Shown: positions 3,031 to 18,582 of the stretch, piece by piece
Layout of the letters: the number at the start of each line of letters is the position of its first letter
How positions within the stretch are numbered: the first letter of the stretch is position 1
UHGV virus genome: UHGV-0171672
DNA from: a virus
Direction: 5' to 3' (one strand)
Length of the DNA: 31,138 bases
Notes under the pieces: model-generated
What the model was told of the DNA's origin: nothing
Seen by the model: only the letters and a program-made list of their open reading frames with translations
Databases searched by the model: none
Position numbers and translations under genes: made by a program

Positions 3031-3182
3031 TTTATGAGAAAACATAAATACTCCTTTGTGTGGTTGGTTATCGTTACAACAGTTCGGGCAAGAATTGCAA
3101 GGCGTAACGAAATTACCACAAAACCATGCGCCGGGCATGGCTAAAAACCCGGCACAAATTCACAGCAGCAGTAGGGATTTTT

Positions 3183-3527: not shown

Positions 3528-3545
3528 TAAATAAAGGATTCAGCC

Positions 3546-3788
3546 ATGATCGAAGCCTACAAAATACTTATTAATAACGCGTTGCAGCGTTACCACTTCG
3601 AACTTGCAAACCGGGGCGTAACTAAGGATGAAAGCCTTCGTAACTCACTGCGCGGCGCAATTATGGGGCTATACAACTGCGCACTGGGCAGCGATGACCG
3701 TGAAGCGCTGGAAGAATTAAAGTCGATTATGACAGAACTGTTTGAAGGTGAAATTGTTGAGCCTTACTTCACAGGGGTAGCCGCATGA
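3546..3788 (+). CDS. Hypothetical protein
   Basis: 80-aa ORF, SD AAAGGA 7 nt upstream; ATGA overlap with the next small ORF. Confidence 0.6.
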   Translation: MIEAYKILINNALQRYHFELANRGVTKDESLRNSLRGAIMGLYNCALGSDDREALEELKSIMTELFEGEIVEPYFTGVAA

Positions 3789-3910
3789 GCATATTTCTTT
3801 CATGGGTAATTCTGATTATCTCCGTGCTTATGGCAATCGGCATTATGCGAATTATCCACACACTGAAGGATATCGAATTATTCTTTACCGGCGATAAACG
3901 CCGTAAATAA
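3785..3910 (+). CDS. Small hydrophobic peptide (41 aa, one predicted TM helix)
   Basis: MSIFLSWVILIISVLMAIGIMRIIHTLKDIELFFTGDKRRK; ATGA-coupled to the upstream ORF; below the 60-aa ORF-track cutoff. Confidence 0.35.
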   Translation: MSIFLSWVILIISVLMAIGIMRIIHTLKDIELFFTGDKRRK

Positions 3911-3922
3911 AGCGAAAACCTT

Positions 3923-4018
3923 ATGAAGAATGTAAAAGCAATACACACCATCGCCACTGTATGGGTGATATTTCAGGTGAGTGCGCTTATCTGGTTAGCC
4001 CTGAAGATCTGGGAATAA
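3923..4018 (+). CDS. Small hydrophobic peptide (31 aa)
   Basis: MKNVKAIHTIATVWVIFQVSALIWLALKIWE; weak RBS. Confidence 0.2.
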   Translation: MKNVKAIHTIATVWVIFQVSALIWLALKIWE

Positions 4019-4123
4019 CCTGAAGCCGAAAGCAGGCGCGGAATAACACCAGAAAACACACGAGCAATTAATTAAGGCATTCATGCCTTCGGGTTCCCTT
4101 TGTCTTTTTTCAGGAGTCAACAA

Positions 4124-4354
4124 ATGAGAACAGCCGAATCACCCGGCAGAGAAATAACCGCCAGACCAGCTAACCATCATGCGCATATCAGCATGGCCGC
4201 AAGAAAAGCCGAGCGTGCACATATCTGCGAATTACTGCGCGAGCTGACTGAGACAGCGAAAGAGACACACACCTGTCCACAGGAAACCTGCGCAGCCATT
4301 GAACGACTGATTGCAATACTCGCCAACCCAGACGAACTGAAGGGGTGCGCATAA
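4124..4354 (+). CDS. Hypothetical protein
   Basis: ATG at 4124 with AGGAG 6 nt upstream; stop overlaps the exonuclease start (TAATG). Confidence 0.55.
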   Translation: MRTAESPGREITARPANHHAHISMAARKAERAHICELLRELTETAKETHTCPQETCAAIERLIAILANPDELKGCA

Positions 4355-4935
4355 TGAACCATCTCATGATTGACACCGAAACACTGGGTAACGGACCGGA
4401 CGCAGCCATATTCGCGATTGGGGCGGTGTTTTTCGACCCGTTCACCGGAAAGCTGGGCAAGCAGTTTGAGAAATTCATCGACCCGGTGGATTCAGAACGC
4501 AACGGCGGAACCGTCAATGCAGCCACCGCTGTATGGTGGGCCGGACAATCCGTGGAAGCCAGAGCCTGCCTGCGCAACGCAGATGGAACAGAGCTGGCAG
4601 CAGTGACCGAATTTCTGGCGTTCATTTCACGCAATATGCATGACGAAAGCCCGGGCAATTCACTGAACATATGGTGTAAGGGCGCATCCTTCGATTTCCC
4701 GATCCTGAAATCCGCCATAACACGCACAGCCGGAGAAAAAAGCATCCCCTGGTGCTACTGGAACGAGCGCTGTATGCGCCCGCTTATCGCCATGGCTGAA
4801 TCAACTGGATGGAAAATGCCAGGCAGATCAGGCAAAGAGACCATTGCTCACACCGCGCTGGGCGACGCCGTTTACCAGGCAAAGGTCGTGTCAGAAATCT
4901 GGCAGCGCTTCACAACACCATTCCTGAACATATGA
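4354..4935 (+). CDS. DEDDh-type 3'-5' exonuclease (DnaQ-like fold)
   Basis: N-terminal MIDTETLG motif and later H...GDA-like motif typical of DEDD exonucleases. Confidence 0.75.
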   Translation: MNHLMIDTETLGNGPDAAIFAIGAVFFDPFTGKLGKQFEKFIDPVDSERNGGTVNAATAVWWAGQSVEARACLRNADGTELAAVTEFLAFISRNMHDESPGNSLNIWCKGASFDFPILKSAITRTAGEKSIPWCYWNERCMRPLIAMAESTGWKMPGRSGKETIAHTALGDAVYQAKVVSEIWQRFTTPFLNI

Positions 4936-4944
4936 GGTGAAGCC

Positions 4945-5172
4945 ATGGTCGCCATCCTGAATGTGTGTTGCTGCCCCCCCCTGAACGTGGAAAGAAAAGC
5001 CCGCGCATCGCTGCGTTTATTCCGCGACGGCGTGCGGAATTTTTCACGCATAAAACCCCACGACTACCTGGTAATAAGAATCGGTTTTCGCTGGCGATTG
5101 CTGAGCAAAAACAACGGGGCGTCATGGGATTTATTAACGCACGAAACCTATAACAAAGAGGCCGCGTTATGA
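4945..5172 (+). CDS. Small hypothetical ORF containing a C8 homopolymer, coupled to dam
   Basis: Strong SD GAGGTGA before ATG 4945; ATGA overlap with dam start; C8 run at 4974-4981. Protein sequence is not obviously globular. Confidence 0.3.
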   Translation: MVAILNVCCCPPLNVERKARASLRLFRDGVRNFSRIKPHDYLVIRIGFRWRLLSKNNGASWDLLTHETYNKEAAL

Positions 5173-6113
5173 GCAAAGAACTGTTATCCGGCACGCCGCT
5201 TAAATGGGTGGGCGGAAAAAGTCGCATCATGAACACACTGAAGGCGCATCTGCCAGAAGCAGACTGCCTGGTTGAGCCGTTTGTGGGTGGCGCATCGGTA
5301 TTCATGAACACCAGTTACAAGCGTTACATCCTGGGTGATTCCAATGGTGCGCTGATTAATTTCTACCGGCAAGCCAGGGACAACACCGACAGCCTGATCG
5401 ACGAGGCGAAAACCCTGTTCCTGAACCACAACAACAGGGGTGACTATCTCATCATTCGCGAAACCTTTAACGCAGAGAATCATGCCTTCCTGAACAGCAG
5501 AACGGGAATAAGCGACCGCCGTGAACTGCGACTGGCCGCCATGTTTTTGTACCTGAACCGACACAGCTTTAACGGTTTGTTCCGCGTGAACGGAAAAGGC
5601 GATTTTAACGTGCCTTTCGGCTGCTACCGCAAGCCCTACTTCCCTGAGCGGGAAATCCGCGCATTTGCAGACAAGGCAAACAGCACCCGAACGCTGCTTA
5701 TCCACGCAGATTTTAAGGATACGCTGAACTCTGCCAGTCACCTGTTCGGCATGGGCAACACGCTTTGCGTGTACTGCGATCCCCCTTACCTGCGATTCAG
5801 TGGCCGGGACAATTTCACCGCCTACGGAAAACCATTCGATGAAGACGAGCACGTTCGTCTGAGGGCAGCGCTTGACCGCCTTTCACAGGAAACGGGCGGC
5901 ATGACCAGCATCACCATATCCAATTCCGACACACCGGAAACCAGACGCATTTATCAGGGTTACCGGATGAACGCCATCCAGGCACCACGAAGCGTTGGCG
6001 CAAGAACCCGGGAATCAGCACCGGAGGTTATCGCCACCCTGAGATGCATCACATCCGCCTTATCAACGGTTCGCACTTCTGCGCCACGAACATGGAAGAA
6101 GTACGCGTGCTGA
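5169..6113 (+). CDS. dam: DNA adenine methyltransferase (Dam-like N6-adenine MTase)
   Basis: KWVGGK AdoMet-binding motif near the N-terminus and catalytic DPPY motif. Confidence 0.9.
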   Translation: MSKELLSGTPLKWVGGKSRIMNTLKAHLPEADCLVEPFVGGASVFMNTSYKRYILGDSNGALINFYRQARDNTDSLIDEAKTLFLNHNNRGDYLIIRETFNAENHAFLNSRTGISDRRELRLAAMFLYLNRHSFNGLFRVNGKGDFNVPFGCYRKPYFPEREIRAFADKANSTRTLLIHADFKDTLNSASHLFGMGNTLCVYCDPPYLRFSGRDNFTAYGKPFDEDEHVRLRAALDRLSQETGGMTSITISNSDTPETRRIYQGYRMNAIQAPRSVGARTRESAPEVIATLRCITSALSTVRTSAPRTWKKYAC

Positions 6114-6141
6114 CAGCAACACGCAATACGGGAGGTAAAGC

Positions 6142-6492
6142 ATGGCAGTGATTTATATCGCCGGTCCCATGACCGGATGCAAAGACCACAACAGGACGGC
6201 ATTTTGCGTGGAGGACCTGAAACTTCGGTGCGCCGGAAACATCGTTCTTAATCCTGCCGTACTGCCTGACGGATTAAGCCAGCAGCAGTACATGAGTATT
6301 TGTATTCCGATGCCCATGTGTGCCGATGCCATTTACTTACTGGATGGATGGGAAGAGTCCGCTGGCGCACGGGCTGAGTACGCAATGGCGCTCAAACTGA
6401 ACATGCCAGTGTCATTCCCGGAAAACCGGGCAGCCGGCGAAACCGTCGCGCAGCTGCTTCACAAATCAAAAGCCGCACAGGCGACTGAGTAA
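6142..6492 (+). CDS. DUF4406-like protein (nucleoside 2-deoxyribosyltransferase-like fold)
   Basis: VIYIAGPMTG ... IVLNPAVLPDGLSQQQYM ... YLLDGWEESAGARAEY pattern matches DUF4406 as I remember it; SD GGAGGT. Confidence 0.7.
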   Translation: MAVIYIAGPMTGCKDHNRTAFCVEDLKLRCAGNIVLNPAVLPDGLSQQQYMSICIPMPMCADAIYLLDGWEESAGARAEYAMALKLNMPVSFPENRAAGETVAQLLHKSKAAQATE

Positions 6493-7603: not shown

Positions 7604-8020
7604 ATGAAGAGCGTTAAGGGACTTTCAGATATTCAGGACTTCTTTAACTGGATGTGGGCGGTGGATCCCCTGCTGGCTTCCCGCCTGAACAACTGGCACG
7701 ACTATTACCGCCGCGCCTGTAAACAGGCTGCCCGCAGCGTCACCACATACGGGGATTTCTCCTTCACCGTGGACGGTCGTTACCGCGTGGACGTGAAAGG
7801 TGACGGTGATGGCTTTGGTTTATTTCACATCAACGGCACCGACAGTACCGCCATCAGCTGGTCATCGTCAGAGATGGCACTGGTTCTGGAAATGACAACC
7901 CACAGCGTGGCCGTGAAAGGCATATACACCGCAGAAGACTTTATCGGTGAATACCAGCGCCTTCTCGTGCTGTACCGCGCGGCGTTTCAGGAGGTCACTG
8001 GCGGGGAGTACGACGCATGA
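7604..8020 (+). CDS. Hypothetical protein upstream of A
   Basis: 138 aa, SD GGAGG; ATGA overlap with A. Confidence 0.6.
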   Translation: MKSVKGLSDIQDFFNWMWAVDPLLASRLNNWHDYYRRACKQAARSVTTYGDFSFTVDGRYRVDVKGDGDGFGLFHINGTDSTAISWSSSEMALVLEMTTHSVAVKGIYTAEDFIGEYQRLLVLYRAAFQEVTGGEYDA

Positions 8021-10530
8021 GTGACCGCAATGCACAGCTGGCGTACCCGTGGAACGCACCGCTACCGGTTATCGATCCTGAAACGTTCGGCAGAGCACAA
8101 CCAACCGCATTACGCCAGGCCATTCAGAGCTACATCAACGAGGACATTCGCATTGATGCCAGACTGGATGAAGAAACCGTCTCCTTCCTGACAAACACAG
8201 ACGAAGGCAAGCGAATTAATTCGCATCTTCACCACGACGAAGAGCGTCGGGTCAGACTGGAAAAACTGGCGAAGCACAAACGCGAGAATCCGCCCACGGT
8301 GGTATCGGAAGCCATGGCAGAACTTCGCGCCCTGCCCTCGTTTCTTGGCAACGTGCTCATTCGTGATCTGGCGCGTTTAAACCGCAAACAACAAAGCGCC
8401 CGCAATGAAGGCGTGAAAAACAACAACACTCACGTGGCCGATAACTTCGTTCGCCGTGGACTGCGCACACGCCTGAAACGCATCGAACAGGTGAATGAAT
8501 GCTTCGCCACGACGGCATTCAAAGCCACCGCAGCGCGTCATCGCCTTGATGAATTACTCATGCTGCCACAACTCAACCGTGATCAAATTCAGCGCCTTGC
8601 CACACTAACGGCGGCGGCATTTTCCACCGAACTGGAACGCATATGTGATGAAGTTACTGAGCGGACAGGAAAAGGCGACGATAACCTGTTTACCTGGTTG
8701 CTGACTTACCAGCAGCTGGCGCGCATGGCAATAAAACTGGGCGTGAACCCACCATACTGGCCGTCACTCGAGATCAGACGTGACCGCCGCACGGCACCAG
8801 ACCCTGAACTGGTACCGGGTGCGGTAATGCGTATCACCTGCGCCACCTGGTGGAACAACCAGCTGCGCCACCTCGCTGATCTCTGGCGGGAGGAATTACT
8901 GCGTGCCGCCGGAAGAGTATCGCGCAAGGCATCCCCCTACATCAGCCATGAGTCACTCCAGGAATTCCGGGAGAAACGCCAGCGCACCCGTGATTTTCTC
9001 AAAAGCTGGGACATTGAAAACGAAGACGGTGAACGCTTGAGTCTGGAGGACGTGTACTGGTCAGGGCTGGGGAATCCGCGCAACCGCCGCAACGAGATGA
9101 TGGCCTGCGTCAGAGGGATGGAACAGGTCGCCGAATCGCGTGGTGACTCCGCGTTCTTCGTGACAGTAACCTGCCCTTCCCGCTTTCACAGCGTGAACGA
9201 GGACGGCAGCCTGAACCCGAAATACAACGGTGCCACCGTGCGCGATGCCAGTGATTATCTGGTTTACGACGTCTTTGCAGCTGCAAGAAAAAAACTCAAC
9301 AAAGAAGGCCTGAGCTGGTACGGGGTGCGCACCGTTGAGCCACACCATGACGGCACACCGCACTGGCACATGCTGGTATTCACCGCCCCGGACAATGAAG
9401 AACGCATCATTGAAATCATGCGTGACGCAGCAATCAAATCAGATCGCGCAGAACTGGGGAATGATATTTCTCCGCGCTTCAAGTGCGAAAAAATCGACCC
9501 GGCAAAAGGCACACCGGCAAGCTACATCGCAACCTATATTGGCAAGAACCTGGACGCCAGCACCTTTCACGACAATGACCCGAAAACCGGCAAACCTTAC
9601 GCCGATAAAGAATCGGGAAAAACCATGGCGGAAACCGTGGAAAACGCCATTGCCTGGGCGAGTCTCCACCGCATCCGGCAGTTCCAGTTCTTCGGTATCC
9701 CGCCCCGACAGGTATGGCGTGAACTCCGCCGCCTTGCCGGACAAATGGAGCGTAACCCCGCATCACCGAAGCGCCTGGACCATGACGACATTGACGCCAT
9801 TCTGGCCGCCGCTGACGTGGGGTGTTTTGCCACCTACATCAACCGTCAGGGCGGCGTGCTCATTCCACGCAACCTGTACCTGATCCGCACCGCATACGAA
9901 ACCGCAGATGAGGCCAACGACTACGGCGAATTCCCGCAGCGCATCTACGGAATTTGTGCCCCGTCGCTCGGCGAGCGCTACACCATCTGTACCCATCCGG
10001 ACGAATGGAAACTGGTCAGAAAAGAAGCGAAATCCGACAACAGCACGGACGAGGGTTTTGACGTTGGGGGCGGCTTCGCCGCACCTTGGACTCGTGGCAA
10101 TAACTGTCCCCATGATGAAAAAACAGACACCGGAGAGGGTAAAAACCCACCACCGGAAACCAGGAAAGAACAAAAACTGGTCGTCCCGGGAGGTGATTTG
10201 GGTGAGTGGTTAAGGTCACTGACCCCCACAAAGCGAAAACAACTCACCAGGCAGCTGAAAGATGCGCCATCTGACACAAAAACCGTGAAAACCGGCGGCC
10301 CCACCACGCCCGATGACGTCATACATGTGCGTACAGCATTGCCGCTGACTGACGTCACCACCACCGTAATCAAGTCGGCACTGAGCGCGACGGGCGAGGA
10401 GCTACACAGTGGCGCAGCACTTTCCGTACACAGAGGTGCACGCGTTCGCCTGCCTGACGGGCGGATTGTGCACTGGGATGAGAAATCACGAAGCCTGGTG
10501 GCAGCAGATCAACCGGAGGTGAACCCATGA
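8017..10530 (+). CDS. A: Rolling-circle replication initiation endonuclease (P2 gpA-like)
   Basis: HUH motif TPHWHMLVF and paired tyrosines YIATYIGK; 837 aa. Confidence 0.9.
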   Translation: MSDRNAQLAYPWNAPLPVIDPETFGRAQPTALRQAIQSYINEDIRIDARLDEETVSFLTNTDEGKRINSHLHHDEERRVRLEKLAKHKRENPPTVVSEAMAELRALPSFLGNVLIRDLARLNRKQQSARNEGVKNNNTHVADNFVRRGLRTRLKRIEQVNECFATTAFKATAARHRLDELLMLPQLNRDQIQRLATLTAAAFSTELERICDEVTERTGKGDDNLFTWLLTYQQLARMAIKLGVNPPYWPSLEIRRDRRTAPDPELVPGAVMRITCATWWNNQLRHLADLWREELLRAAGRVSRKASPYISHESLQEFREKRQRTRDFLKSWDIENEDGERLSLEDVYWSGLGNPRNRRNEMMACVRGMEQVAESRGDSAFFVTVTCPSRFHSVNEDGSLNPKYNGATVRDASDYLVYDVFAAARKKLNKEGLSWYGVRTVEPHHDGTPHWHMLVFTAPDNEERIIEIMRDAAIKSDRAELGNDISPRFKCEKIDPAKGTPASYIATYIGKNLDASTFHDNDPKTGKPYADKESGKTMAETVENAIAWASLHRIRQFQFFGIPPRQVWRELRRLAGQMERNPASPKRLDHDDIDAILAAADVGCFATYINRQGGVLIPRNLYLIRTAYETADEANDYGEFPQRIYGICAPSLGERYTICTHPDEWKLVRKEAKSDNSTDEGFDVGGGFAAPWTRGNNCPHDEKTDTGEGKNPPPETRKEQKLVVPGGDLGEWLRSLTPTKRKQLTRQLKDAPSDTKTVKTGGPTTPDDVIHVRTALPLTDVTTTVIKSALSATGEELHSGAALSVHRGARVRLPDGRIVHWDEKSRSLVAADQPEVNP

Positions 10531-10931
10531 CACGATTCCATTGTGTACTCCAGCACCATGATTTCAGCGCCATCATGAGTGGACGCATTCCGGCACTGAC
10601 GCTGAGCGGCGTCAGTGTTCGACCACAGCCAGGCGACGAACTGGAGATCACGATCGCAAACCCCGATCGCAGCACAGATACCGTCATGACCGACATCCTG
10701 ACTGCAAGAACCAACACCGACAGAAGCGCATTCATCGTTGCCGTGCGCCCTCGTCGCGCCATATCAGAGCCTGAACCACTGACTCCCGTAGGAAAAATCA
10801 TGCAGGCATACCACGAAAAACAGAACAGAAAACTCAACGAAGAACTGGCAAGAACGCTGGCCGTCGTTAACCGAAAAGCGGCAATTGTCAGCTATGTGCA
10901 TTCGGCCGCCAGCAGGCAATCACGCAGGTAA
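10527..10931 (+). CDS. Hypothetical protein
   Basis: ATGA overlap with A, SD GGAGGT. Confidence 0.6.
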   Translation: MTRFHCVLQHHDFSAIMSGRIPALTLSGVSVRPQPGDELEITIANPDRSTDTVMTDILTARTNTDRSAFIVAVRPRRAISEPEPLTPVGKIMQAYHEKQNRKLNEELARTLAVVNRKAAIVSYVHSAASRQSRR

Positions 10932-10979
10932 CAAAAGACCATGAACATGACCAGAAACAGCAAACCGAAGGAGCACACC

Positions 10980-11150
10980 ATGAACGACATCAGGAGGATC
11001 AGCGACAAAGAGCTTACGAAAATGATTGAGTCGGCGCAGCAGCTGCTTTCACGACGAAATCCGGTTGTGGAAGAAACATGGTGGGAAAATTTACTGGCAG
11101 CACTGACCGAACTCCGCGAACGCCGGAACAACGAAGGAGCCGCCAAATGA
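10980..11150 (+). CDS. Small hypothetical protein
   Basis: ATG at 10980 with GAAGGAG 6 nt upstream; in-frame ATG at 10941 lacks an SD. Confidence 0.45.
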   Translation: MNDIRRISDKELTKMIESAQQLLSRRNPVVEETWWENLLAALTELRERRNNEGAAK

Positions 11151-11485
11151 AGACACCCAGAATGACCGGAAAGGTAATCATTTTACGCTACCTGGAAACG
11201 CACGCACGCTTCAGCGCACCAGAGCTGGTTGAAAAACTGGGCGTGAAAAGGACCATCATTAATCAGGCCGCCGGAAAGATGGTACGCGAAGGGCTGCTGG
11301 TTGTGGACGGGTACACGGACAAGATAACGCATTACCGGAAGCCAACGGAAAAGGAACGACTGGAGCTGGCGCAACGGGCAGAATGGCAACAAGAGCCGTC
11401 CGTAATTGAAGCCTGCAAGCGCAGCGAAATCATGAAGAGAATTCTATTTATCTACGGCGCTGGCGAAGAGCTGCCAGTCATCTAA
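11147..11485 (+). CDS. Putative winged-helix DNA-binding protein
   Basis: ATGA overlap with the previous ORF, SD GAAGGAG; KVIILRYLETHARFSAPELVEKLGVKRTIINQAAGKMVREGLLVV looks like a wHTH. Confidence 0.55.
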   Translation: MKTPRMTGKVIILRYLETHARFSAPELVEKLGVKRTIINQAAGKMVREGLLVVDGYTDKITHYRKPTEKERLELAQRAEWQQEPSVIEACKRSEIMKRILFIYGAGEELPVI

Positions 11486-11517
11486 CCCCAACAATAAAAC
11501 CAACACGGGAGACAAAT

Positions 11518-11835
11518 ATGCCAACACAGGTTGCAACAGAGGGACGACTGGCAGCAGACCCGAACACAAGGAGAACAACCAAAGGAACCAACGTCACAAC
11601 GGCACAACTGGCGGTATCACTACCCTGCCATGGCGCAGAACAGCCAACCACAATGTGGCTTTACCTTATTTCATTCGGGAAGCAGCACGAAGAACTGGCA
11701 AAACACAGAAAAGGCGATCTGATTCTGGTGCACGGAAACTTGCAGGTAAACAGGTATCAGGACAAGTACGGGCAACAGAAAGAGGGCTGGCAGTTGCTGG
11801 CGCAAAGCATTATCAGCTCAAGAACCGGGCGATGA
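11518..11835 (+). CDS. SSB-like OB-fold protein, truncated (no acidic C-tail)
   Basis: GRLAADPNTRRTTKGTNVTTAQLAV ... WLYLISFGKQHEELAKHRKGDLILVHGNLQVNRYQDKYG parallels the E. coli SSB OB-fold core. Confidence 0.6.
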   Translation: MPTQVATEGRLAADPNTRRTTKGTNVTTAQLAVSLPCHGAEQPTTMWLYLISFGKQHEELAKHRKGDLILVHGNLQVNRYQDKYGQQKEGWQLLAQSIISSRTGR

Positions 11836-11845
11836 CTTCACGCAT

Positions 11846-11886
11846 GTTACCCTTAGCAGCGAGGGTAACACAGGATTTCTTTTTTC
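11846..11886 (+). terminator. Rho-independent terminator ending the rightward early operon
   Basis: GTTACCC-N10-GGGTAAC stem followed by ACAGGATTTCTTTTTTC. Confidence 0.6.
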
Positions 11887-12592
11887 AGTCAAACCGAAAT
11901 CGGCCGCTTGTCGCGTATGCATAGGTGACCACCGCACCCAGCGCATTCACACGCTTCTTCACATAAATCACATTACCATCCTGATAGTCACCGTATGGGT
12001 AGCAAATAAAGATTGTTTTTTGCAAATCAGGATCATCAACAAATGCCCCTGAACAACTTTTTGAGCTACCGCGACTGTACTCATAGGGAGCGGAATAGAA
12101 TGAATCTTCACCCGGAAGAAAATATATCAGCGTAACCAGGAGGGTAAACAGAATCATCCAGGTAAGAAGGCACATACCCGAAAAAAACTTAAGATACGAT
12201 GTAACCCCGGTAAATTTAGACCGATCAACCAGGTTCTTTTTCAACAGGCACAGTGAGACAAAAACCGAAAGCACCACAGACACTGAAACAAGGCAGTTTG
12301 TCGTGAACGAATAAAGGTAGGTAATTCTGTAAACATCGTTTCGCCACCAAATAAAAAGAAAAATCCCCCCCAAAACAGAAAGCGTGACAAAAGTTAAATA
12401 AGGATATGAGTAATTTTTCACAGTTCTCACCCGGCAGTCTCCCACTGACTCAGACAGATGAATATCATCACCACCTGCCACAAAAAATCGCAAGATCAAA
12501 ACTACACAAAAGCGCACGAAATTGCACAATTTTTCTAATGTACTTTTTCCCCATTCCGCCCGGTAACGGCGCTGGCTGAGGCCGGTTTGCAC
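11885..12592 (-). CDS. Multi-TM membrane protein (cargo island, module 2); start uncertain
   Basis: At least three hydrophobic helices plus a ~80-aa C-terminal soluble region. The first ~25 codons of the track ORF overlap promoter-like repeat copy A, so a downstream GTG (12421 or 12430, after GGGTGAG) is the more likely start. Confidence 0.5.
   Translation of the reverse strand: MQTGLSQRRYRAEWGKSTLEKLCNFVRFCVVLILRFFVAGGDDIHLSESVGDCRVRTVKNYSYPYLTFVTLSVLGGIFLFIWWRNDVYRITYLYSFTTNCLVSVSVVLSVFVSLCLLKKNLVDRSKFTGVTSYLKFFSGMCLLTWMILFTLLVTLIYFLPGEDSFYSAPYEYSRGSSKSCSGAFVDDPDLQKTIFICYPYGDYQDGNVIYVKKRVNALGAVVTYAYATSGRFRFD
12511..12576. repeat. Promoter-like direct repeat, copy A
   Basis: agcgcacgaaattgcacaatttttctaatgtactttttcccc... 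aligns at ~75% identity (hand alignment) with 15438-15501. Confidence 0.5.
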
Positions 12593-12759
12593 GGTGCACG
12601 AAAAACGAGGCGAGTAGTGGATGAGTAAAAATTAATAATAAGTATAAGCAATGTCGATAAACCAAGACACAACAAGTATTCAACACAATTAATCATGCAC
12701 GTGCAAATAGCAATAACATTAACACATTATTTATATAAAAACAATCTGATATTATTTCG

Positions 12760-12790
12760 GTTGTGGGCTTGGTATTTTCAAACCCACAAC
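12760..12790 (-). terminator. Perfect 8-bp stem hairpin downstream of the three-gene module (non-canonical terminator candidate)
   Basis: GTTGTGGG-N15-CCCACAAC, 35 nt past the stop of the 263-aa gene in an AT-rich spacer; no clean U-tract. Confidence 0.25.
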
Positions 12791-12824
12791 AATAATATTA
12801 TTTCGAGATATTAAACATAGACAA

Positions 12825-13616
12825 TCACCCTATTTTTCTATGCATTTTCATGAGTTCCCTTATTAAGCTAGCATGAAAGATTGATACATCAGAAATCCTT
12901 GTATCAATAGATGAATCAATATTATCAGAAACCTTTTGCTCAAATAAATCGCAGATACCATCAAGTGACTCAATATCTTTTTCCAACTTAGAAAAACCCT
13001 TAAATAGATATAATGAATCCCTTAACTCCCCAAGCTTTGAAAATAGTTGGCTATCTAGTAATGATATAAATTCATCAGAGGGAAGCCCCATCGCATCCTT
13101 AAAATCTTCCGTAACTTCAAAAGCTAATCCATTAATTTTAGGGAGAATAACTTCTCGTAACCAATACCCTTCGTTTATAGCTTCATTTCTTCCTTTATAA
13201 TGCTGCCACAAAGGAACCCCTACAGATGCAATTAGCGCAATAATTGAAATTGCTATAGAGTACCATTCAGGTCCTGATTCAGGAACTCTAACGATATTAT
13301 AGAGATTCCCCGATGAGGTTGAGGGGTAATATCCATTCAGAACATAATTATCAGGTTTATCATAAAGAAGGTGCGGTGTAAACTTCCTTTCATAACTATT
13401 GCATAATTTTAGATCGCTATTTTTTCCAATGCATATATCAGCATTAAAAATGTTTCCACTCTTTGGTTCTATTACGTGAGACTCTGAATTTTGCGAATCC
13501 ATGTTAGACGCGGTTCTTTCTAGATATGTCGCAGAGCAAGCGGATATATTAACAAAAAAAATGACAGGCAATGCTGTCATTTTAAAAACAGAACACAAAT
13601 CAGAAGAACGGAACAT
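12825..13616 (-). CDS. Lipoprotein-like membrane protein with internal TM helix (cargo island)
   Basis: N-terminus MFRSSDLCSVFKMTALPVIFFVNISAC has a lipobox-like ISAC; internal helix WYSIAISIIALIASVGVPLW; 17-nt overlap with the upstream gene. Confidence 0.6.
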   Translation of the reverse strand: MFRSSDLCSVFKMTALPVIFFVNISACSATYLERTASNMDSQNSESHVIEPKSGNIFNADICIGKNSDLKLCNSYERKFTPHLLYDKPDNYVLNGYYPSTSSGNLYNIVRVPESGPEWYSIAISIIALIASVGVPLWQHYKGRNEAINEGYWLREVILPKINGLAFEVTEDFKDAMGLPSDEFISLLDSQLFSKLGELRDSLYLFKGFSKLEKDIESLDGICDLFEQKVSDNIDSSIDTRISDVSIFHASLIRELMKMHRKIG

Positions 13617-13944
13617 TTCGATGTAATCCTCTTCTCACAGCCCTATCCAGCTCAGAAAGCATTCCTTCTTTATAATTCACTCCATCTAAAGATGTTCTGC
13701 TATAAAATTCATTCGGAGATGAAAAAAGAGGCAATATATTCTCTAGCATACCCAAAAAGTATGAGCTTGACACAACCACACCATTCGGAATTGATAGAAA
13801 AATCCTATCATTGTTATCAAAAGTAAAGCGATCTATGCCAAAGAAACTATATGCCTTGCGACCATTATCACGCCCAGCAAATAATTTCTTGCCGCCATCT
13901 TTAACTAATTTATTGAAATCTATATAAATATTTGCCATTTTCAT
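13600..13944 (-). CDS. Small STAS-like (DUF4325-like) protein, partner of the GHKL ATPase
   Basis: 114 aa; segment IFLSIPNGVVVSSSYFLGMLENIL resembles the SSSF-type motif of DUF4325/STAS proteins; SD GAGGAA; 11 nt after the ATPase stop. Confidence 0.55.
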   Translation of the reverse strand: MKMANIYIDFNKLVKDGGKKLFAGRDNGRKAYSFFGIDRFTFDNNDRIFLSIPNGVVVSSSYFLGMLENILPLFSSPNEFYSRTSLDGVNYKEGMLSELDRAVRRGLHRNVPFF

Positions 13945-13955
13945 TTACCTATTCC

Positions 13956-15332
13956 TCAGGTTCTTTGAGTTGCATTTTCCGGTAAAGGAAAACGTATATT
14001 AATCATAACTCCCGGAAAACGGGCTTTCTGCATACACTTAAGATAGGTACGATCTGGTTCAGATTCAAGCCCTGTATTATTAAATGGATAAGTGAATTTG
14101 TCACTTTGGTTATCTAACGTTTGCTTTTTCAACTTATAAGAACCATCAAAGTTTATATGTGTGCATCCAGAAATTAAAGACATTCTGATGTTTCCACTTA
14201 GTTCTTTGGATAGTTCTTTTAAACTATCATGCATATCCTGGAAAAACTTCAATAGCTCAATGGTTCCCGTACCAGAACTATCTGTCTCCGTTTCATTTTT
14301 ACAACTAACCCGCCCCTGCAAAGCAGCGACTGTAATCAAACCTTCTCTAAACATCCCTTTTTTATTTATGTGTTTTTCCACATAAGGGATTATGTGATTG
14401 TTATATGAATAATGTTCTAAAGAAAGTCCTGAAAAAGTTTCATCAATAGTTTTTCCAAAGTTAAAAACAGCTATTTCACATGTTGGCTGTTTTAAGCCAT
14501 TATTTACAAACCCCCTCAAATACCAACGCGGACGCTGCTCAAGCCCACAATGTCTCTCTGCATTATCAAGTAATTCGCCCATGCAAGATGTTAGATGGTT
14601 TTCTGCCTTGCTAACTAATTTTAATTGATGATCACTTAGACACTCGTTTATATAATTAGTGAATTTCTCAGACATTCTATTTTTGGTATCTTGTGCAAAT
14701 GCAGACGCATTTTCCTTGCCGATACTATCAGCAGAGAATATTCTTTTCTTAGGGTTATCTTTTTTCGATTTTTCTGTTTCATCATGCACCTTCCCTGGCG
14801 TCACTTTATTTATTTCTTTAACCAACCCGATGTCACGAATAATTTCTAAATATTTTTCATCCTTCGGATAAATGCCATTAAGTTGTACTTGAGCATCTTT
14901 TAAATTTATATTGTGACGTTTGGCTGAGCTCAGTGCAACACCAAGGAGACATTCCGCACCTAAACAATGCTTTTTATTTTTAGTATAATCAAGCAAATAT
15001 GATTTACGTTTACCCCTGGCAATCAATCTAGTTACACCATGAATAAACAAAAGAGATTTTTCTGGATGATCAAACAAATCGAAATATTTAGGTATTATTA
15101 TTCTATCTTCTTTGCGACGAAGAGTTGCAGTATCATATTTCTTTACGGATGAAATACTTTCAATAAAAGTAGCCACCTGACTTTTCACTGGTGTTACTTC
15201 GTCAGAAAAATGTAACCTTTCATAGGCTTTATATTTAATTCTTCTTTTATTTTTTCTCTCAACGCCTTTTAAAAAGCGAATCCAACCACGTAAAAAGCGT
15301 TTTCTTGCATCCTTTTTATCTATTTTTTTCAC
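13956..15332 (-). CDS. GHKL-type (histidine-kinase-like) ATPase with basic N-terminal domain
   Basis: N-box ELLDNAERH (encoded around 14551-14577) and Gly-rich DSSGTGTIELL; GTG start at 15332 after AAGGTGA; K/R-rich ~240-aa N-terminal region. Confidence 0.7.
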   Translation of the reverse strand: MKKIDKKDARKRFLRGWIRFLKGVERKNKRRIKYKAYERLHFSDEVTPVKSQVATFIESISSVKKYDTATLRRKEDRIIIPKYFDLFDHPEKSLLFIHGVTRLIARGKRKSYLLDYTKNKKHCLGAECLLGVALSSAKRHNINLKDAQVQLNGIYPKDEKYLEIIRDIGLVKEINKVTPGKVHDETEKSKKDNPKKRIFSADSIGKENASAFAQDTKNRMSEKFTNYINECLSDHQLKLVSKAENHLTSCMGELLDNAERHCGLEQRPRWYLRGFVNNGLKQPTCEIAVFNFGKTIDETFSGLSLEHYSYNNHIIPYVEKHINKKGMFREGLITVAALQGRVSCKNETETDSSGTGTIELLKFFQDMHDSLKELSKELSGNIRMSLISGCTHINFDGSYKLKKQTLDNQSDKFTYPFNNTGLESEPDRTYLKCMQKARFPGVMINIRFPLPENATQRT

Positions 15333-15429
15333 TATTCACCTTACTTAACAAACATCTATACTACTTCGTTGCAAAGTATACATATCACTTGCTAATACAC
15401 AATATGGCTTCGAGATAATCCGCAGCATC

Positions 15430-15456
15430 TGCACAATAGTGCACAAATTTGCATAA
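15430..15456. promoter_or_regulatory. Three TGCA(C/T)AA heptamers at 10-bp spacing (candidate regulator binding array)
   Basis: TGCACAAtagTGCACAAattTGCATAA; two related copies in repeat A (GCGCACG at 12512, TGCACAA at 12523). Confidence 0.35.
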
Positions 15457-15501
15457 TTTTTTTGAACGACTTTTTGCCCTTCCGGCCCGCGTGGCGGCTG
15501 G
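15438..15501. repeat. Promoter-like direct repeat, copy B (upstream of the GHKL ATPase operon)
   Basis: agtgcacaaatttgcataatttttttgaacgactttttgccc...; see copy A at 12511-12576. Confidence 0.5.
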
Positions 15502-15700
15502 ATCCGTCAAGGATCCGTGCGTGCACAAAAAAACACGCTTTTTCTGCGCGCAGGCGACGAGGGAAGGGCGCCCGAATTGAGGGGTGGAAGGCAGGTTGCT
15601 TTATTTGGGGTCGTATTGCGCGTGATACGCCAGCAGTGAAGCCTGTTTTAAAAAACCACATCAAAACATGGTCAGGGAAACAGGCCGTCAGAATGCGTCT

Positions 15701-15732
15701 GGCGAGGTCGGAGATCGGGAGGGAAACGGACG
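15701..15732. other. Candidate cos region
   Basis: GGCGAGGTCGGAGATCGGGAGGGAAACGGACG begins like the P2 cohesive end as I recall it (GGCGAGGCGGGGAAAGCAC) and sits ~70-100 bp beyond the 3' end of Q, as in P2. Memory-based. Confidence 0.25.
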
Positions 15733-15748
15733 TCAGGAGCTGGAGAGT

Positions 15749-15773
15749 CGGGGCATAAATTTTTTATGCCCCG
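15749..15773. other. Perfect 11-bp inverted repeat (hairpin) between cos-like region and Q
   Basis: CGGGGCATAAA-TTT-TTTATGCCCCG; no adjoining U-tract on either strand. Confidence 0.4.
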
Positions 15774-15799
15774 GCGAAGCAGCCGACAAGCGAAGCGCG

Positions 15800-16843
15800 T
15801 CAGCTGGCACCATCCTGAAGCAGCGAATAGGGATTAAAGCGCATCACTTCAACCCCAAGCCATTCATTGACATGCTTCATCGCTTCCATGACCGGTTGCA
15901 ACTCGTTGATGAAAAATACCCTCGCCGCCTTCTCAACGTCACCGAACGCCGCGTTCCCGTCAGGCATTGCCCCCATCAGCTGAGGCGGTACACGGTGAGC
16001 CGCAAGGATATCGTCGCGGGTACCCCCCTTGATGTTAAGGAATTCGTCCTTCGCGGTGATTTGCTGGAACGGCAGTATTTGCACACCATCCTTGCCGCCA
16101 CCTGGCGCGTGCAGAAGGATATTGCGGAACGCCCCCTTGCCACGGGATTCCGTGAGTGTTTTCTTGATGGCTTCCACGCTTTCAGCGTTTGCCTGGGCGG
16201 CACCAACATAGACAATGCACCCGGCATGTGAACCGTTGTCATAGTAGAGCTTGCGGAACGTATCCGCTGAGTTCGACAGACTCACCGACAGCAACCCACC
16301 GATATACTCCGGCATCCCGTAGATTTCCTGGTTGATATCGGGGTTCAGAACGTGGCACACAGCCCCCTTACGGAAAGCAAATTCAGAACCATCATCATTG
16401 AGGTACCAGTACGTATCGAGATCACTGCCCCGCCGCGTGTATTTCGCCAGCGCAGGACGAAGCGCAATGGGTTCACCGAACTTGTTGCGGCGGACTTCAA
16501 GATAGGCATTACCGAACACGAACCAGTCCAGCGCAAACGCGGAAAACGCCTGGCGGGACAGTAGCGGATGAGGAACAAAGCAGCCGTTCAGGGCATTACG
16601 CTTAAAATACAGGGCCGACTGGTGCCATGATGCACGACGCGAGGCGCGAGCAATGGCATTCCAGTCCATGGGGGTGTCATAGTAGCGGCCATTATCGGCG
16701 CACGACATGTTATCAAGCAGATCAAGACGGCTTGCTTCATAAGGACCGTCAAACGTGAAAGCACTGAGTGACGGCGCTGATTTCAGTGCATCAGCCAGTG
16801 AGCCCGTGCCGCGCTTTCCGGTGTATTTTTTACGTTTACTCAT
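15800..16843 (-). CDS. Q: Portal protein (P2 gpQ-like)
   Basis: 347 aa at the P2 Q position; sequence recognisable as P2-family portal; 5-nt gap after P. Confidence 0.9.
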   Translation of the reverse strand: MSKRKKYTGKRGTGSLADALKSAPSLSAFTFDGPYEASRLDLLDNMSCADNGRYYDTPMDWNAIARASRRASWHQSALYFKRNALNGCFVPHPLLSRQAFSAFALDWFVFGNAYLEVRRNKFGEPIALRPALAKYTRRGSDLDTYWYLNDDGSEFAFRKGAVCHVLNPDINQEIYGMPEYIGGLLSVSLSNSADTFRKLYYDNGSHAGCIVYVGAAQANAESVEAIKKTLTESRGKGAFRNILLHAPGGGKDGVQILPFQQITAKDEFLNIKGGTRDDILAAHRVPPQLMGAMPDGNAAFGDVEKAARVFFINELQPVMEAMKHVNEWLGVEVMRFNPYSLLQDGAS

Positions 16844-16848
16844 TGTGT

Positions 16849-18582
16849 TCAGAACTCCATTGCAAAGCCACGATTATCCTCACGCTCTGCGCCGATTGGC
16901 TCATTGATAACAGCAAGCATGGTTGCCCAGGCGAGATCACCATGACTGACACCGCGTGAGCGGTCAGTGTCATAGGTGATATAGCCGCCGGGCGTCTGTA
17001 TTTTTCGCACCGATGCAAAGGCCTGTACCAGGTCGCGCTCGCTGCGGTCATACTCCCAGCGTCCGGCACGGACCACCTGAAGCATCTTCATGACCAGCGC
17101 CCGCTTTGAAGCGATATTAAAGTTATACGGAACAGCCAGGGGGAAGAATTTTTTCACTATCTGATAAACCCCTTCCCCGTTCCCGCCGGTGACATCAATC
17201 CCGATATGCTTCACATTGTATTTTTGGGTGTACTCCTCAATCAGGGCCGCCTGCTGTTCAAACTCCATGCCCTGAACCCTGACGGTTTCCACCGTACGAA
17301 AACGCCCACCGGCAACAAGGGGTGGCACGCACACCGACAGCGCCCCGCAGTCCCCCTTCCCGCTGCTGCCGTTGGCGTCATACCCGAGCCAGACTTCCCT
17401 CACCCCCATAGGGCGGACAGCAAAAGGCTTCCAGTCCGGCCATTCGTCATAGCCATCAACACCGCACCCGACGAGCGTATTCAGACTGAAGGCTGCCTCA
17501 CCATCACGGACAAATTCGCACATGTACAGATTGCGAAATTCACTTTCTGTATTTTCGCCGCGAATATCATCAATACTGGTGAACTGCCATCCGTTAGCGA
17601 CAGCATCCTCAATGGTGACAATCTGCCGCCACGTTTTGTCGGGAAAGAGCACGCCCCTCTTCAGGTGAGCATGTGAAACATCAAACTCACTGCGTTTTGA
17701 GCGTGGCTGTTCGCTGTTCCAGCGGTCCCCCGTCCAGAACTGATACGCCTCATGCATTTCCCCCGACGGCGTCGAGAAGTAAGTGCGCGTAAGCCCTTCC
17801 AGGGTCGCCATTGCCCCGGCAACCTTCCTGAGGTTCACAAAGTTACTGACCCAGAAAAATTCGTCGAATTTAAGATGACCGGTATAGGACTGCGCGGTGG
17901 CAGCTGACGTACCGAGGAAGTGCAGCTCCGCGCCGTTGGACAGCACGATCTTGTCGCCCCCTTTCAGCTCAACATCCACTTCCAGCGCCGCCTGCTGAAT
18001 AAAATGCTTGAACTGATACGCCTGACGACGGGAGGCGGACAAAAATATCTGGTTGCGCTGATACCCGGCGGAGACGTCATCACGCAGTGCATCAAGGAGC
18101 GCCTCGCGCGCAAAATACCAGGTCGCACCAATCTGACGCGACTTCAGGATCATACGGTTGCGGTGGTGACGGTTTTCGTACCATTCACGTTGATGCCACG
18201 CCAGCGTCGGGAGGATTTTTTCACGAAGCGCGACAATCTGTTCTTCGGTGAAGTGATTTTTCAGTCTGCGTTTACGGGGCTTTTTACCGGAAACGGCCTG
18301 TTCTCCCTGACCGTCATTCAGTTTTTTCAGCTGGCGCGTGAGAAGGTCAATTTCCTTAAAATCGCTGCCGCTTTTCTCTGTTTTTGTGGTGAGCTGGATC
18401 AGGCGCGCATCAATGGACTGGGTGACCCGCTGGATCGGAGGTGTGGCATCCCACTCATCGCGTTTTTTCCATGAGTAAATCGTGTTCTGGCTGATCCCCA
18501 TCAGTTGCGAGATTTCCGCAGGTGTGTACCCTTGCCAGTAAAGTTGTCTTGCCCTTATGCGGACAAATGCATCCTGAATCAT
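16849..18582 (-). CDS. P: Terminase large (ATPase) subunit (P2 gpP-like)
   Basis: ATG at 18582 (MIQDAFVRIRARQLYWQGYTPAEIS...) preceded by AAGGGGG; the track start at 18627 is an upstream alternative. Confidence 0.9.
   Translation of the reverse strand: MIQDAFVRIRARQLYWQGYTPAEISQLMGISQNTIYSWKKRDEWDATPPIQRVTQSIDARLIQLTTKTEKSGSDFKEIDLLTRQLKKLNDGQGEQAVSGKKPRKRRLKNHFTEEQIVALREKILPTLAWHQREWYENRHHRNRMILKSRQIGATWYFAREALLDALRDDVSAGYQRNQIFLSASRRQAYQFKHFIQQAALEVDVELKGGDKIVLSNGAELHFLGTSAATAQSYTGHLKFDEFFWVSNFVNLRKVAGAMATLEGLTRTYFSTPSGEMHEAYQFWTGDRWNSEQPRSKRSEFDVSHAHLKRGVLFPDKTWRQIVTIEDAVANGWQFTSIDDIRGENTESEFRNLYMCEFVRDGEAAFSLNTLVGCGVDGYDEWPDWKPFAVRPMGVREVWLGYDANGSSGKGDCGALSVCVPPLVAGGRFRTVETVRVQGMEFEQQAALIEEYTQKYNVKHIGIDVTGGNGEGVYQIVKKFFPLAVPYNFNIASKRALVMKMLQVVRAGRWEYDRSERDLVQAFASVRKIQTPGGYITYDTDRSRGVSHGDLAWATMLAVINEPIGAEREDNRGFAMEF

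What the first reader, a model, noticed from the sequence alone, without database searches (positions are those of the whole stretch)
11885..12592. Second membrane-protein module with ambiguous start codon
The 235-aa track ORF overlaps repeat copy A in its first ~25 codons and has no internal ATG until ~residue 150. A GTG at 12421 or 12430 (after GGGTGAG) is the more plausible start, giving a ~178-aa protein with three TM helices and a soluble C-terminal domain. It is separated from the three-gene module by a 230-bp AT-rich spacer with a hairpin (12760-12790), so it may be an independent effector or superinfection-exclusion gene.
Basis: partly seen in the sequence, partly recalled or inferred. 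Interest (0 to 1): 0.5.

Follow-up and report, generated by a model that had tools for sequence, protein, structure and literature searches.

The report
Prophage membrane-protein gene, start corrected
The 235-codon reading frame is really a 178-residue inner-membrane protein gene carried as independent cargo in the cos-proximal anti-phage hotspot of a P2-like E. coli prophage; it belongs to a common but uncharacterised prophage family that is a reasonable, untested candidate for blocking infection by other phages.

Summary
The window is a P2-like prophage, and the ORF 11885-12592(-) lies in the gpA-to-portal cargo hotspot next to cos.

Start codon: the gene starts at GTG 12421, giving 178 aa.
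- All full-length homologues begin MK(K/N)xSY at that codon.
- Salmonella, Cedecea and E. coli EC2 relatives have in-frame stops upstream.
- EC2 has 20 substitutions in the 171-nt extension and none in the 537-nt core.
- GTG 12430 is not excluded.

Upstream region: the first ~31 codons of the long ORF overlap a real repeat, 12502-12611, about 84% identical to 15429-15498. It is P2-like backbone sequence beside cos, with 10-bp-phased TTGTGCA repeats.

Independence: the gene occurs alone in 22 E. coli genomes and the three-gene module alone in others. They join at 12611|12612, and a strong hairpin (12760-12790) lies between them.

Protein: three TM helices, predicted N-in/C-out, and a conserved 75-aa five-strand domain with two (near-)invariant cysteines, predicted periplasmic. 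Pfam, NCBIfam, PADLOC, PDB and fold searches gave no match. PHROGs places it only in an unknown-function family.

Distribution: P2-like hotspots, lambdoid xis-exo regions (915 of 5426 complete E. coli genomes) and chromosomal sites.

Function is inferred, not shown. An envelope-level superinfection-exclusion protein is most likely (about 0.4).

The parts
11885..12421 (-). True coding sequence: 178-aa membrane protein. GTG start at 12421-12419, stop TGA at 11887-11885. GC 0.42 against about 0.55 for the phage backbone.
   Evidence: Homologue alignments A1 and A3. Upstream stops and substitution pattern. PGAP 178-aa call in relatives. GC values.
12422..12592 (-). Non-coding 5' region wrongly included in the 235-aa ORF. 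It holds the leader, the alternative GTG 12430 and probably the promoter.
   Evidence: E. coli EC2 has 20 substitutions and 2 in-frame stops here against 0 changes in the core. No amino-acid conservation with homologues.
12502..12611 (-). Repeat copy A: cos-proximal P2-like backbone block with 10-bp-phased TTGTG(C/T)A-type repeats (plus-strand matches at 12503 and 12523). Putative promoter or regulatory region of the gene.
   Evidence: 84% identity to copy B, score 54 against shuffles 17.7 +/- 2.3. Continuous with the cos region in L002. The same block lies upstream of homologues in Salmonella and E. coli P2-like prophages and in lambdoid phage 434.
12612..12617 (+). Junction scar: GAGTAG, the last two codons of the gpA gene of an L003-type P2-like phage. 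It marks where the three-gene module was joined onto copy A (12611|12612).
   Evidence: Three-way sequence comparison of window, L002 and L003.
12760..12790 (.). Strong hairpin downstream of the three-gene module (extended stem 12749-12798). Likely a terminator that insulates the membrane-protein gene from read-through.
   Evidence: dG -21.9 kcal/mol (- strand) and -21.3 (+ strand), z = -7.1 and -6.0. There is no U-run on the - strand, so terminator function is inferred.
11845..11870 (.). Hairpin between the convergent SSB gene (+) and the membrane-protein gene (-). A T-run follows on the + strand (11875-11884).
   Evidence: dG about -13.7 kcal/mol, z = -3.2 and -2.5. Sequence read.
12365..12371 (-). 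G7 homopolymer inside the CDS (codons for L-G-G in TM1). One relative has G9, which shifts the frame.
   Evidence: The change may be a sequencing error in that genome.
15429..15538 (-). Repeat copy B (context): the same backbone block in its normal place beside cos, upstream of the three-gene module. Three phased repeats at 15430, 15440 and 15450.
15553..15571 (+). cos cohesive-end 19-mer of this prophage (context): GGCGACGAGGGAAGGGCGC, resembling P2 cosR GGCGAGGCGGGGAAAGCAC.
   Evidence: by resemblance to the annotated P2 cosR. An exact P2 pattern with up to 3 mismatches was not found, so the assignment is by position and partial similarity.

Best explanation
SHOWN
- The window is a P2-like prophage. 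Positions 11885-12421(-) encode a 178-aa protein that starts at GTG 12421.
- The gene is a self-contained cargo cassette in the cos-proximal gpA-portal hotspot, the locus that holds old and tin in phage P2.
- The upstream 171 nt of the long ORF is non-coding. It includes a retained copy (12502-12611) of the backbone block that normally lies beside cos.
- The three-gene module was stacked between this cassette and cos by an illegitimate join at 12611|12612.

PREDICTED
- The protein has three TM helices with N-in/C-out topology.
- This places a conserved 75-aa five-strand domain, with two (near-)invariant cysteines, in the periplasm.

INFERRED
- The gene is transcribed on its own from the retained upstream block, in the lysogen.
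- Its product sits in the inner membrane. There the periplasmic domain binds either a conserved host envelope component or an incoming phage ejection or tail-tip protein.
- This blocks genome entry of superinfecting phages. That is superinfection exclusion in the manner of HK97 gp15, P22 SieA or T4 Imm, by an unrelated protein family.

CONFIDENCE: about 0.9 for the gene model and its independence, about 0.4 for the exclusion function. The single number given for this explanation (0.4) is the one for the function.
For: Locus
- gpA (Phage_GPA, 1.9e-108), an SSB gene and the portal flank the region.
- The literature defines the gpA-gpQ interval as the P2 defence hotspot that carries old and tin (PMC9122126; PMC13586616).

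Start codon.

Independence
- The gene is alone between SSB and portal in 22 genomes, and the three-gene module is alone in others.
- A hairpin lies between the two modules.

Foreign origin: GC 0.42 against 0.55-0.56 for the backbone.

Orientation
- The gene is opposite to the adjacent early-operon genes in the P2-like prophage.
- It is also opposite to the pL-operon genes in lambdoid phages 434, 2B8 and mEp332, which is the classic moron layout (definition in PMC3594210).

Upstream block
- It travels with the gene into lambdoid phages: 434 against copy B scores 53 (shuffle max 26), and Salmonella against 434 scores 64.
- It is absent from the chromosomal homologues examined. This argues that it is needed for expression from the prophage.

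Topology
- Hydropathy profile.
- The TM2-TM3 loop carries 4.3 K/R on average across 24 family members, against 1.3 in loop 1.
- There are about 2.0 Cys per C-terminal domain, and that domain is the best-conserved part.
- AF2 predicts three helices plus five strands.

Stand-alone gene: no conserved partner gene in any context.

Prevalence: 915 + 77 + 23 of 5426 complete E. coli genomes.
Against: - The P2 hotspot also carries non-defence cargo, such as partition systems and cytolethal distending toxin.
- Homologues sit at apparently stable chromosomal or megaplasmid sites in Cedecea, Serratia and Pantoea. This suggests a host-physiology role from which the phage copies derive.
- The periplasmic domain is the most conserved part of the protein. 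That fits a conserved host partner better than rapidly evolving phage targets.
- No consensus sigma-70 promoter was found in the upstream block.
- The block is not significantly similar to phage P2's mapped old-tin promoter region. Prophage expression is therefore inferred, not shown.
Confidence: 0.4

Rival explanations
1. Lysogenic-conversion or host-physiology factor unrelated to phages. On this reading it is an inner-membrane protein whose periplasmic domain acts in envelope homeostasis, transport regulation, or protection against bacteriocins or contact-dependent toxins. The prophage copies would be morons that raise host fitness.
For: - Chromosomal or megaplasmid homologues lie outside prophages. 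In Cedecea the gene is between an AraC-type gene and an SBP_bac_5 gene. In Serratia it is directly after ptsG and near mntR and an Nramp gene. In Pantoea it is beside a TetR gene, an ABM gene and fetAB.
- The periplasmic domain is highly conserved.
- The P2 hotspot is known to hold non-defence cargo.
- The HK97 gp15 / YebO precedent shows that phage morons can derive from host genes.
Against: - In E. coli and Salmonella the family was found only in prophages, at loci enriched for anti-phage genes.
- One metagenomic homologue sits beside two DUF4062-TPR STAND-type proteins and an Apyc1-like gene, a defence-island-like setting.
- There is no conserved neighbour that points to a pathway.
Confidence: 0.3
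2. Abortive-infection membrane effector. The protein would be a latent pore or membrane disruptor that kills or arrests the infected cell when triggered by phage infection.
For: - Membrane proteins in hotspot systems are often proposed suicide effectors (PMC9122126).
- The locus is a defence hotspot.
- Weak, non-significant resemblances: RexB in 1 of 24 members at E = 0.09, and a Foldseek hit to an S-2TMbeta effector at prob 0.09.
Against: - The gene is stand-alone, with no sensor partner in any context.
- Only about 9 N-terminal residues and a roughly 17-residue loop face the cytoplasm. That leaves little to sense an intracellular infection cue.
- The conserved, cysteine-bearing domain is predicted to face the periplasm.
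Confidence: 0.12
3. Start-codon variant: translation begins at GTG 12430, giving 181 aa (MRT + core), rather than at 12421.
For: GGGAG lies 8 nt upstream of GTG 12430 in the window. This is a better Shine-Dalgarno match than anything before 12421. The 9 nt between the two GTGs are invariant in the close relatives examined.
Against: - All homologues from other lineages start at the residue aligned with 12421, and Salmonella reads MKNYSYPYL exactly.
- The GGGAG is mutated to GGTGT in the EC2 lineage, whose protein core is 100% identical.
Confidence: 0.15
4. The annotated 235-aa protein from GTG 12592 (WP_225390635.1) is the real product.
For: The frame is open in the window and in L001 and L002, and PGAP calls it there.
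Against: - E. coli EC2 has two in-frame stops in the extension, with 11.7% divergence there against 0% in the core.
- Stops also lie upstream in Salmonella and Cedecea.
- The extension shows no homology in other family members.
- The extension overlaps a backbone repeat that is also present upstream of an unrelated module.
Confidence: 0.03

Closest known systems
Phage P2 old and tin (cargo of the same gpA-portal, cos-proximal hotspot)
   Same: Same locus. The gene is transcribed leftward, away from cos. It is prophage accessory cargo with lower GC than the backbone, and the hotspot is documented to hold anti-phage genes.
   Different: No sequence relation. Old is a cytoplasmic ATPase/nuclease and Tin is a soluble protein, whereas this is a 3-TM membrane protein. 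The upstream block is not significantly similar to P2's mapped old-tin promoter region.
HK97 gp15 (moron-encoded inner-membrane superinfection-exclusion protein; YebO-related)
   Same: A small stand-alone prophage moron that encodes an inner-membrane protein, with non-phage enterobacterial homologues. gp15 blocks genome entry without touching the outer-membrane receptor (PMC3594210).
   Different: No sequence similarity (no Pfam hit of any kind). This protein is larger, has 3 TM helices and carries a structured periplasmic domain. Its function is untested.
P22 SieA
   Same: Similar size (162-164 aa against 178 aa), three predicted TM helices, inner membrane, prophage-expressed, and likewise an uncertain start codon (PMC10883804).
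   Different: hhalign probability is 0.4%. SieA's conserved motif FxRYPxEAxxFNK is predicted to be cytoplasmic and is absent here. SieA genes sit only between genes 16 and 9 of P22-like phages.
T4 Imm and Sp (membrane or periplasmic exclusion proteins of a virulent phage)
   Same: Envelope-located proteins that act on incoming phage. This comparison rests on my own knowledge.
   Different: No Pfam match to Imm_superinfect or any other family, and the architecture differs.
DUF1093 / YxeF-like small membrane-associated beta-barrel proteins of Bacillus (PDB 3npp, 2k5q)
   Same: Best structural neighbours of the C-terminal domain model. They are small beta-barrels attached to the membrane.

Membership tests
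P2-like gpA-gpQ (cos-proximal) hotspot cargo | Located between the replication gene A region and portal gene Q, adjacent to cos, in a P2-like prophage | tested here: met
   Phage_GPA at 8017-10530 and Phage_portal at 15800-16843. cos-like 19-mer at 15553-15571. Definition from PMC9122126 and PMC13586616.
P2-like gpA-gpQ (cos-proximal) hotspot cargo | Variable presence between otherwise near-identical prophages (cassette behaviour) | tested here: met
   The same backbone occurs with the gene alone (L002), and another P2-like prophage has the three-gene module alone (L003). Only one genome besides the window has both.
Moron (Juhala/Hendrix sense) | Base composition differs from flanking phage genes | tested here: met
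   GC 0.42 against 0.55-0.56.
Moron (Juhala/Hendrix sense) | Own promoter and terminator; expressed from the repressed prophage | tested here: inconclusive
   Hairpins flank the unit, and a conserved upstream block travels with the gene. No consensus sigma-70 promoter was found. Expression cannot be measured here.
P22 SieA family | Sequence homology to SieA types A, B or C, including the FxRYPxEAxxFNK motif | tested here: not met
   hhalign probability 0.4%. The motif is absent from the sequence.
P22 SieA family | Blocks DNA delivery of P22-like phages through their ejection proteins | not testable with these tools
   Needs infection assays.
HK97 gp15 / YebO, T4 Imm, RexB (known membrane exclusion or Abi proteins with profile models) | Match to the family profile (Pfam or PADLOC) | tested here: not met
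   No Pfam hit above noise for any of 24 family members. PADLOC gave only RexB, at E = 0.09, in 1 of 24 members.
MliC/PliC periplasmic lysozyme inhibitors (considered because of the SxSGA motif) | Profile similarity to MliC; eight-strand barrel | tested here: not met
Class I holins (3 TM) | About 70-110 aa, 3 TM, short charged cytoplasmic C-terminus, located in a lysis cassette | tested here: not met
   178 aa with a 75-aa beta domain predicted to be periplasmic. It is not in a lysis cassette. There is no holin Pfam hit.
PHROG 1416 | Profile match | tested here: met
   E = 7.6e-50 over residues 89-178, which is the full 90-position profile. The family is annotated 'unknown function'. The short profile suggests that the phage members were called from an internal ATG.

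The most novel reading that the evidence does not exclude
The protein founds an unrecognised and very common family, present in roughly 18% of complete E. coli genomes through P2-like and lambdoid prophages. On this reading it is an inner-membrane superinfection-exclusion protein whose disulfide-bonded periplasmic beta-domain blocks phage genome entry by a mechanism unrelated to gp15, SieA or Imm. The family would have spread from P2-like to lambdoid phages together with a portable about 100-nt P2-backbone regulatory block that carries three phased TTGTGCA repeats.
Probability: 0.3. Interest if true: 0.6.

Novelty: new variant of a known kind. Interest (0 to 1): 0.4.

Why it matters
- Annotation. 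RefSeq carries both a 235-aa and a 178-aa model for identical core proteins, and PHROG 1416 covers only the C-terminal half. The 178-aa model should replace the others.
- A testable candidate. A stand-alone, orphan membrane protein occupies a validated anti-phage hotspot and is carried by prophages in about one complete E. coli genome in five, including O157:H7. It is a cheap, well-defined candidate for a new exclusion or defence family.
- How cassettes stack. The locus shows at nucleotide resolution how hotspot cassettes are stacked. An illegitimate join 16 nt from cos leaves a duplicated regulatory block, so each module keeps its own copy.
- Caveat. If the gene proves to have a non-phage role, it is an ordinary moron of unknown function.

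Tried and rejected
- Domain searches gave nothing informative. Pfam, NCBIfam and PADLOC gave no match for the protein or for 24 family members. PHROGs gave only 'unknown function'.
- A PDB sequence profile search found only noise.
- SieA homology is rejected: hhalign 0.4%.
- The MliC-like lysozyme-inhibitor idea, prompted by the SCSGA motif, is rejected: hhalign 0.45% and no fold hit.
- The upstream block is not demonstrably homologous to the mapped P2 old-tin promoter. Local alignment scores of 18-21 fall within the shuffles, so the equivalence is positional only.
- The exact P2 cos 19-mer was not found with up to 3 mismatches. A diverged 19-mer was found by alignment instead.
- A 13-codon upstream ORF (ATG 12468 to the TGA that overlaps GTG 12430) looked like translational coupling. 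It is not conserved in Salmonella, Cedecea or 434, so I dropped it.
- The neighbouring three-gene module is not Rousset's validated 'hp+hp+hp' system; the protein sequences differ.
- Rfam gave nothing in 11000-16000.
- Literature searches for the protein accessions and for mEp332 found no functional data.

Full report
**Setting**

The window is a P2-like prophage of E. coli.
- The 837-aa ORF at 8017-10530 is a replication gene A protein (Pfam Phage_GPA, E = 1.9e-108).
- A MarR-like gene and an SSB gene (11518-11835) follow it.
- On the other strand are the portal gene (15800-16843, Phage_portal) and the terminase gene.
- One complete genome, E. coli S1-CAM-02-A, matches window 10000-17500 at 99.6% and is annotated in the same way.

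The finding lies in the interval between gene A and the portal, next to cos. Two papers define this interval as the defence and cargo hotspot of P2-like phages, the place where P2 itself carries old and tin (PMC9122126; PMC13586616).

**The observation**

- ORF 11885-12592(-) has a GTG start and 235 codons.
- In-frame GTGs lie at 12445, 12430 and 12421. The first internal Met is residue 140, not about 150.
- The spacer to the three-gene module is 232 bp with GC 0.306.
- The hairpin core at 12760-12790 folds at -21.9 kcal/mol, z = -7.1.

The 'repeat copy A' is real. Positions 12502-12570 align to 15429-15498 at 84% identity, with score 54 against 17.7 +/- 2.3 (max 27) for shuffles. Comparison with relatives extends it to 12611.

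**Start codon**

Five lines of evidence place the start at 12421.
1. A search of 5.8 billion proteins found 43 homologues of 150-223 aa. An exhaustive profile search of 1.84 billion cluster representatives found 58 clusters. The full-length members are about 166-200 aa and match the profile from their first residues.
2. In both alignments the conserved N-terminus MK(K/N)xSYxxL aligns with V58 of the long ORF. Salmonella P0017 begins MKNYSYPYL, where the window reads (V)KNYSYPYL.
3. In Salmonella P2-like prophages, in Cedecea and in E. coli EC2, in-frame stop codons lie between the equivalents of 12592 and 12421.
4. E. coli EC2 differs from the window at 20 of 171 positions in the extension and at 0 of 537 in the core. 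This is the pattern expected of non-coding DNA next to a constrained gene.
5. PGAP already annotates the 178-aa form (WP_000801013.1) in EC2 and SCU-106, and the 235-aa form (WP_225390635.1) in S1-CAM-02-A.

GTG 12430 has a better Shine-Dalgarno sequence in the window (GGGAG, 8 nt upstream). That motif is GGTGT in the EC2 lineage, whose protein is identical. I therefore favour 12421 and keep 12430 as a minor alternative. The two products differ by three residues.

**Independence and origin of the repeat**

Megablast against 5426 complete E. coli genomes splits the query exactly at 12611|12612.
- Window 11800-12611 occurs in 22 genomes that lack the three-gene module. In the four of these I inspected, the membrane-protein gene is the only cargo annotated between SSB and the portal (in one of them it is frameshifted and unannotated).
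- Window 12612 onward occurs in other genomes, where the three-gene module lies directly after gene A.

In the single-cargo relative L002, the sequence upstream of the gene runs on without a break into cos. The cos 19-mer is GGCGACGAGGGAAGGGCGC, and its window copy is at 15553-15571. Copy A therefore ends 16 nt short of cos.

In the window, the next bases after copy A (12612-12617, GAGTAG) are the last two codons of the gene A of an L003-type phage. That phage's three-gene module and its own cos-proximal block (copy B) follow. The two modules were thus stacked by an illegitimate join, and each kept a copy of the backbone block.

The block contains 10-bp-phased TTGTGCA-type repeats. Copy B has three, at 15430, 15440 and 15450.

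The same block lies about 90 nt upstream of the homologous genes in several phages:
- Salmonella and E. coli P2-like prophages;
- lambdoid phages 434 and mEp332, which is notable. 434 against copy B scores 53 (shuffle max 26), and Salmonella against 434 scores 64.

The block is absent upstream of the chromosomal homologues examined. The simplest reading is that the gene moved from P2-like to lambdoid phages together with its P2-backbone regulatory region. This argues that the block serves expression rather than packaging.

I could not identify a consensus sigma-70 promoter in it. It is also not significantly similar to phage P2's mapped old-tin promoter region. 'Promoter' therefore remains an inference.

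**The protein**

- Hydropathy gives three TM segments at residues 6-27, 39-61 and 79-103. AlphaFold2 gives three helices followed by five beta-strands (mean pLDDT 70.5; domain-only model 63).
- Across 24 diverse members, the TM2-TM3 loop carries 4.3 K/R in about 17 residues, against 1.3 in loop 1. This predicts N-in/C-out topology.
- The C-terminal domain is the best-conserved part. It holds on average 2.0 cysteines: C140 is invariant and C123 nearly so. This fits a disulfide-bonded periplasmic domain.
- Its motif is PG..S.Y.A.Y.Y..GG+.SCSGA.V.DP.L.K.I.IC.P.G...V.KRSN.LG.VV.

**Distribution**

The family is small, with 58 clusters at 50% identity, and the members I could place taxonomically are enterobacterial. 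It is nevertheless common in E. coli complete genomes:
- the window allele is in 23 genomes;
- a second P2-hotspot allele, next to StbAB partition genes, is in 77;
- the lambdoid allele is in 915 of 5426, including O157:H7.

In lambdoid phages the gene lies between xis and exo, on the strand opposite to the pL operon. That is a classic moron layout (PMC3594210).

Homologues outside prophages also exist:
- Cedecea;
- Serratia, directly after ptsG;
- Pantoea megaplasmids;
- a metagenomic lineage, beside DUF4062-TPR STAND-type genes.

No partner gene is conserved in any context.

**Mechanism**

Shown:
- an independent, horizontally mobile, single-gene cassette;
- it encodes a 3-TM protein whose conserved domain is predicted to be periplasmic;
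- it sits in loci where temperate phages keep prophage-expressed accessory genes.

Inferred, with confidence about 0.4: it is expressed from the lysogen and acts at the inner membrane or periplasm to block genome entry of superinfecting phages. It would work like HK97 gp15, P22 SieA or T4 Imm, but with an unrelated protein. The strong conservation of the periplasmic domain suggests that it binds a conserved host envelope component rather than variable phage proteins.

The main rival (about 0.3) is a host-physiology or other lysogenic-conversion role, suggested by the chromosomal homologues and by the non-defence cargo known in this hotspot. An abortive-infection pore is less likely (about 0.12), because almost nothing of the protein faces the cytoplasm and there is no sensor partner.

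**Verdict**

The functional suggestion is plausible but untested. If the gene is an exclusion protein, it is a new protein family doing a known kind of job. Interest is moderate.

Noticed in passing
window 12825-15332 (- strand): Three-gene module (458, 114 and 263 aa; GC 0.345). It has no Pfam, NCBIfam or PADLOC hit and only weak PHROG 'unknown' hits. It occurs alone between gene A and the portal in other P2-like prophages. Rousset 2022 Table S5 lists it only as hypothetical x3, and it is not their validated 'hp+hp+hp' system. It is a candidate uncharacterised defence system.
   Followed up: partly
window 12502-12611 and 15429-15538; L007 5823-5921; L027 4823-4911; L004 (phage 434) 4895-4921: A portable backbone block with three 10-bp-phased TTGTGCA repeats lies about 90 nt upstream of the membrane-protein gene in P2-like and lambdoid phages. 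It is also beside cos, upstream of an unrelated module. It is absent from the chromosomal homologues examined. The binding factor and function are unknown, and it is not significantly similar to P2's old-tin promoter region.
   Followed up: partly
window 12611|12612 and 12612-12617: Sharp recombination junction. Copy A stops 16 nt short of where cos would be, and is followed by GAGTAG, the last two codons of another phage's gene A. This is a scar of cassette stacking by illegitimate recombination.
   Followed up: yes
window 15533-15571: cos-like 19-mer GGCGACGAGGGAAGGGCGC (15553-15571). On the - strand it is followed at once by a terminator-like hairpin and T-run (15551-15533), presumably the end of the late portal operon.
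   Followed up: partly
window 12365-12371; L023 (E. coli STEC17-183): A G7 homopolymer lies inside TM1 of the CDS. STEC17-183 has G9 there, which shifts the frame, and the gene is unannotated in that genome. This could be slipped-strand inactivation or a homopolymer sequencing error.
   Followed up: no
L004 (phage 434, OL657227) 4755-4925: The annotated 56-aa 'putative membrane protein' upstream of the 434 homologue overlaps the conserved non-coding block. Its reading frame is not conserved in other loci, so it is probably a spurious call. The 188/200-aa models of the 434-type gene likewise carry a non-conserved N-terminal extension.
   Followed up: partly
L026 (Serratia marcescens) 2333-4510; L025 (Pantoea vagans) 2704-6342: Non-phage homologues sit directly downstream of ptsG in Serratia, and beside TetR/ABM and fetAB genes in Pantoea. 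PtsG is the inner-membrane factor that HK97 needs for DNA entry, so the Serratia adjacency is curious, but it may be coincidence.
   Followed up: no
L002 5719-5979 compared with window 11518-11835: The SSB gene upstream of the cassette is annotated shorter (261 nt) in strain SW070917 than in the window (318 nt). This suggests a truncating change at its 3' end, next to the cargo boundary.
   Followed up: no
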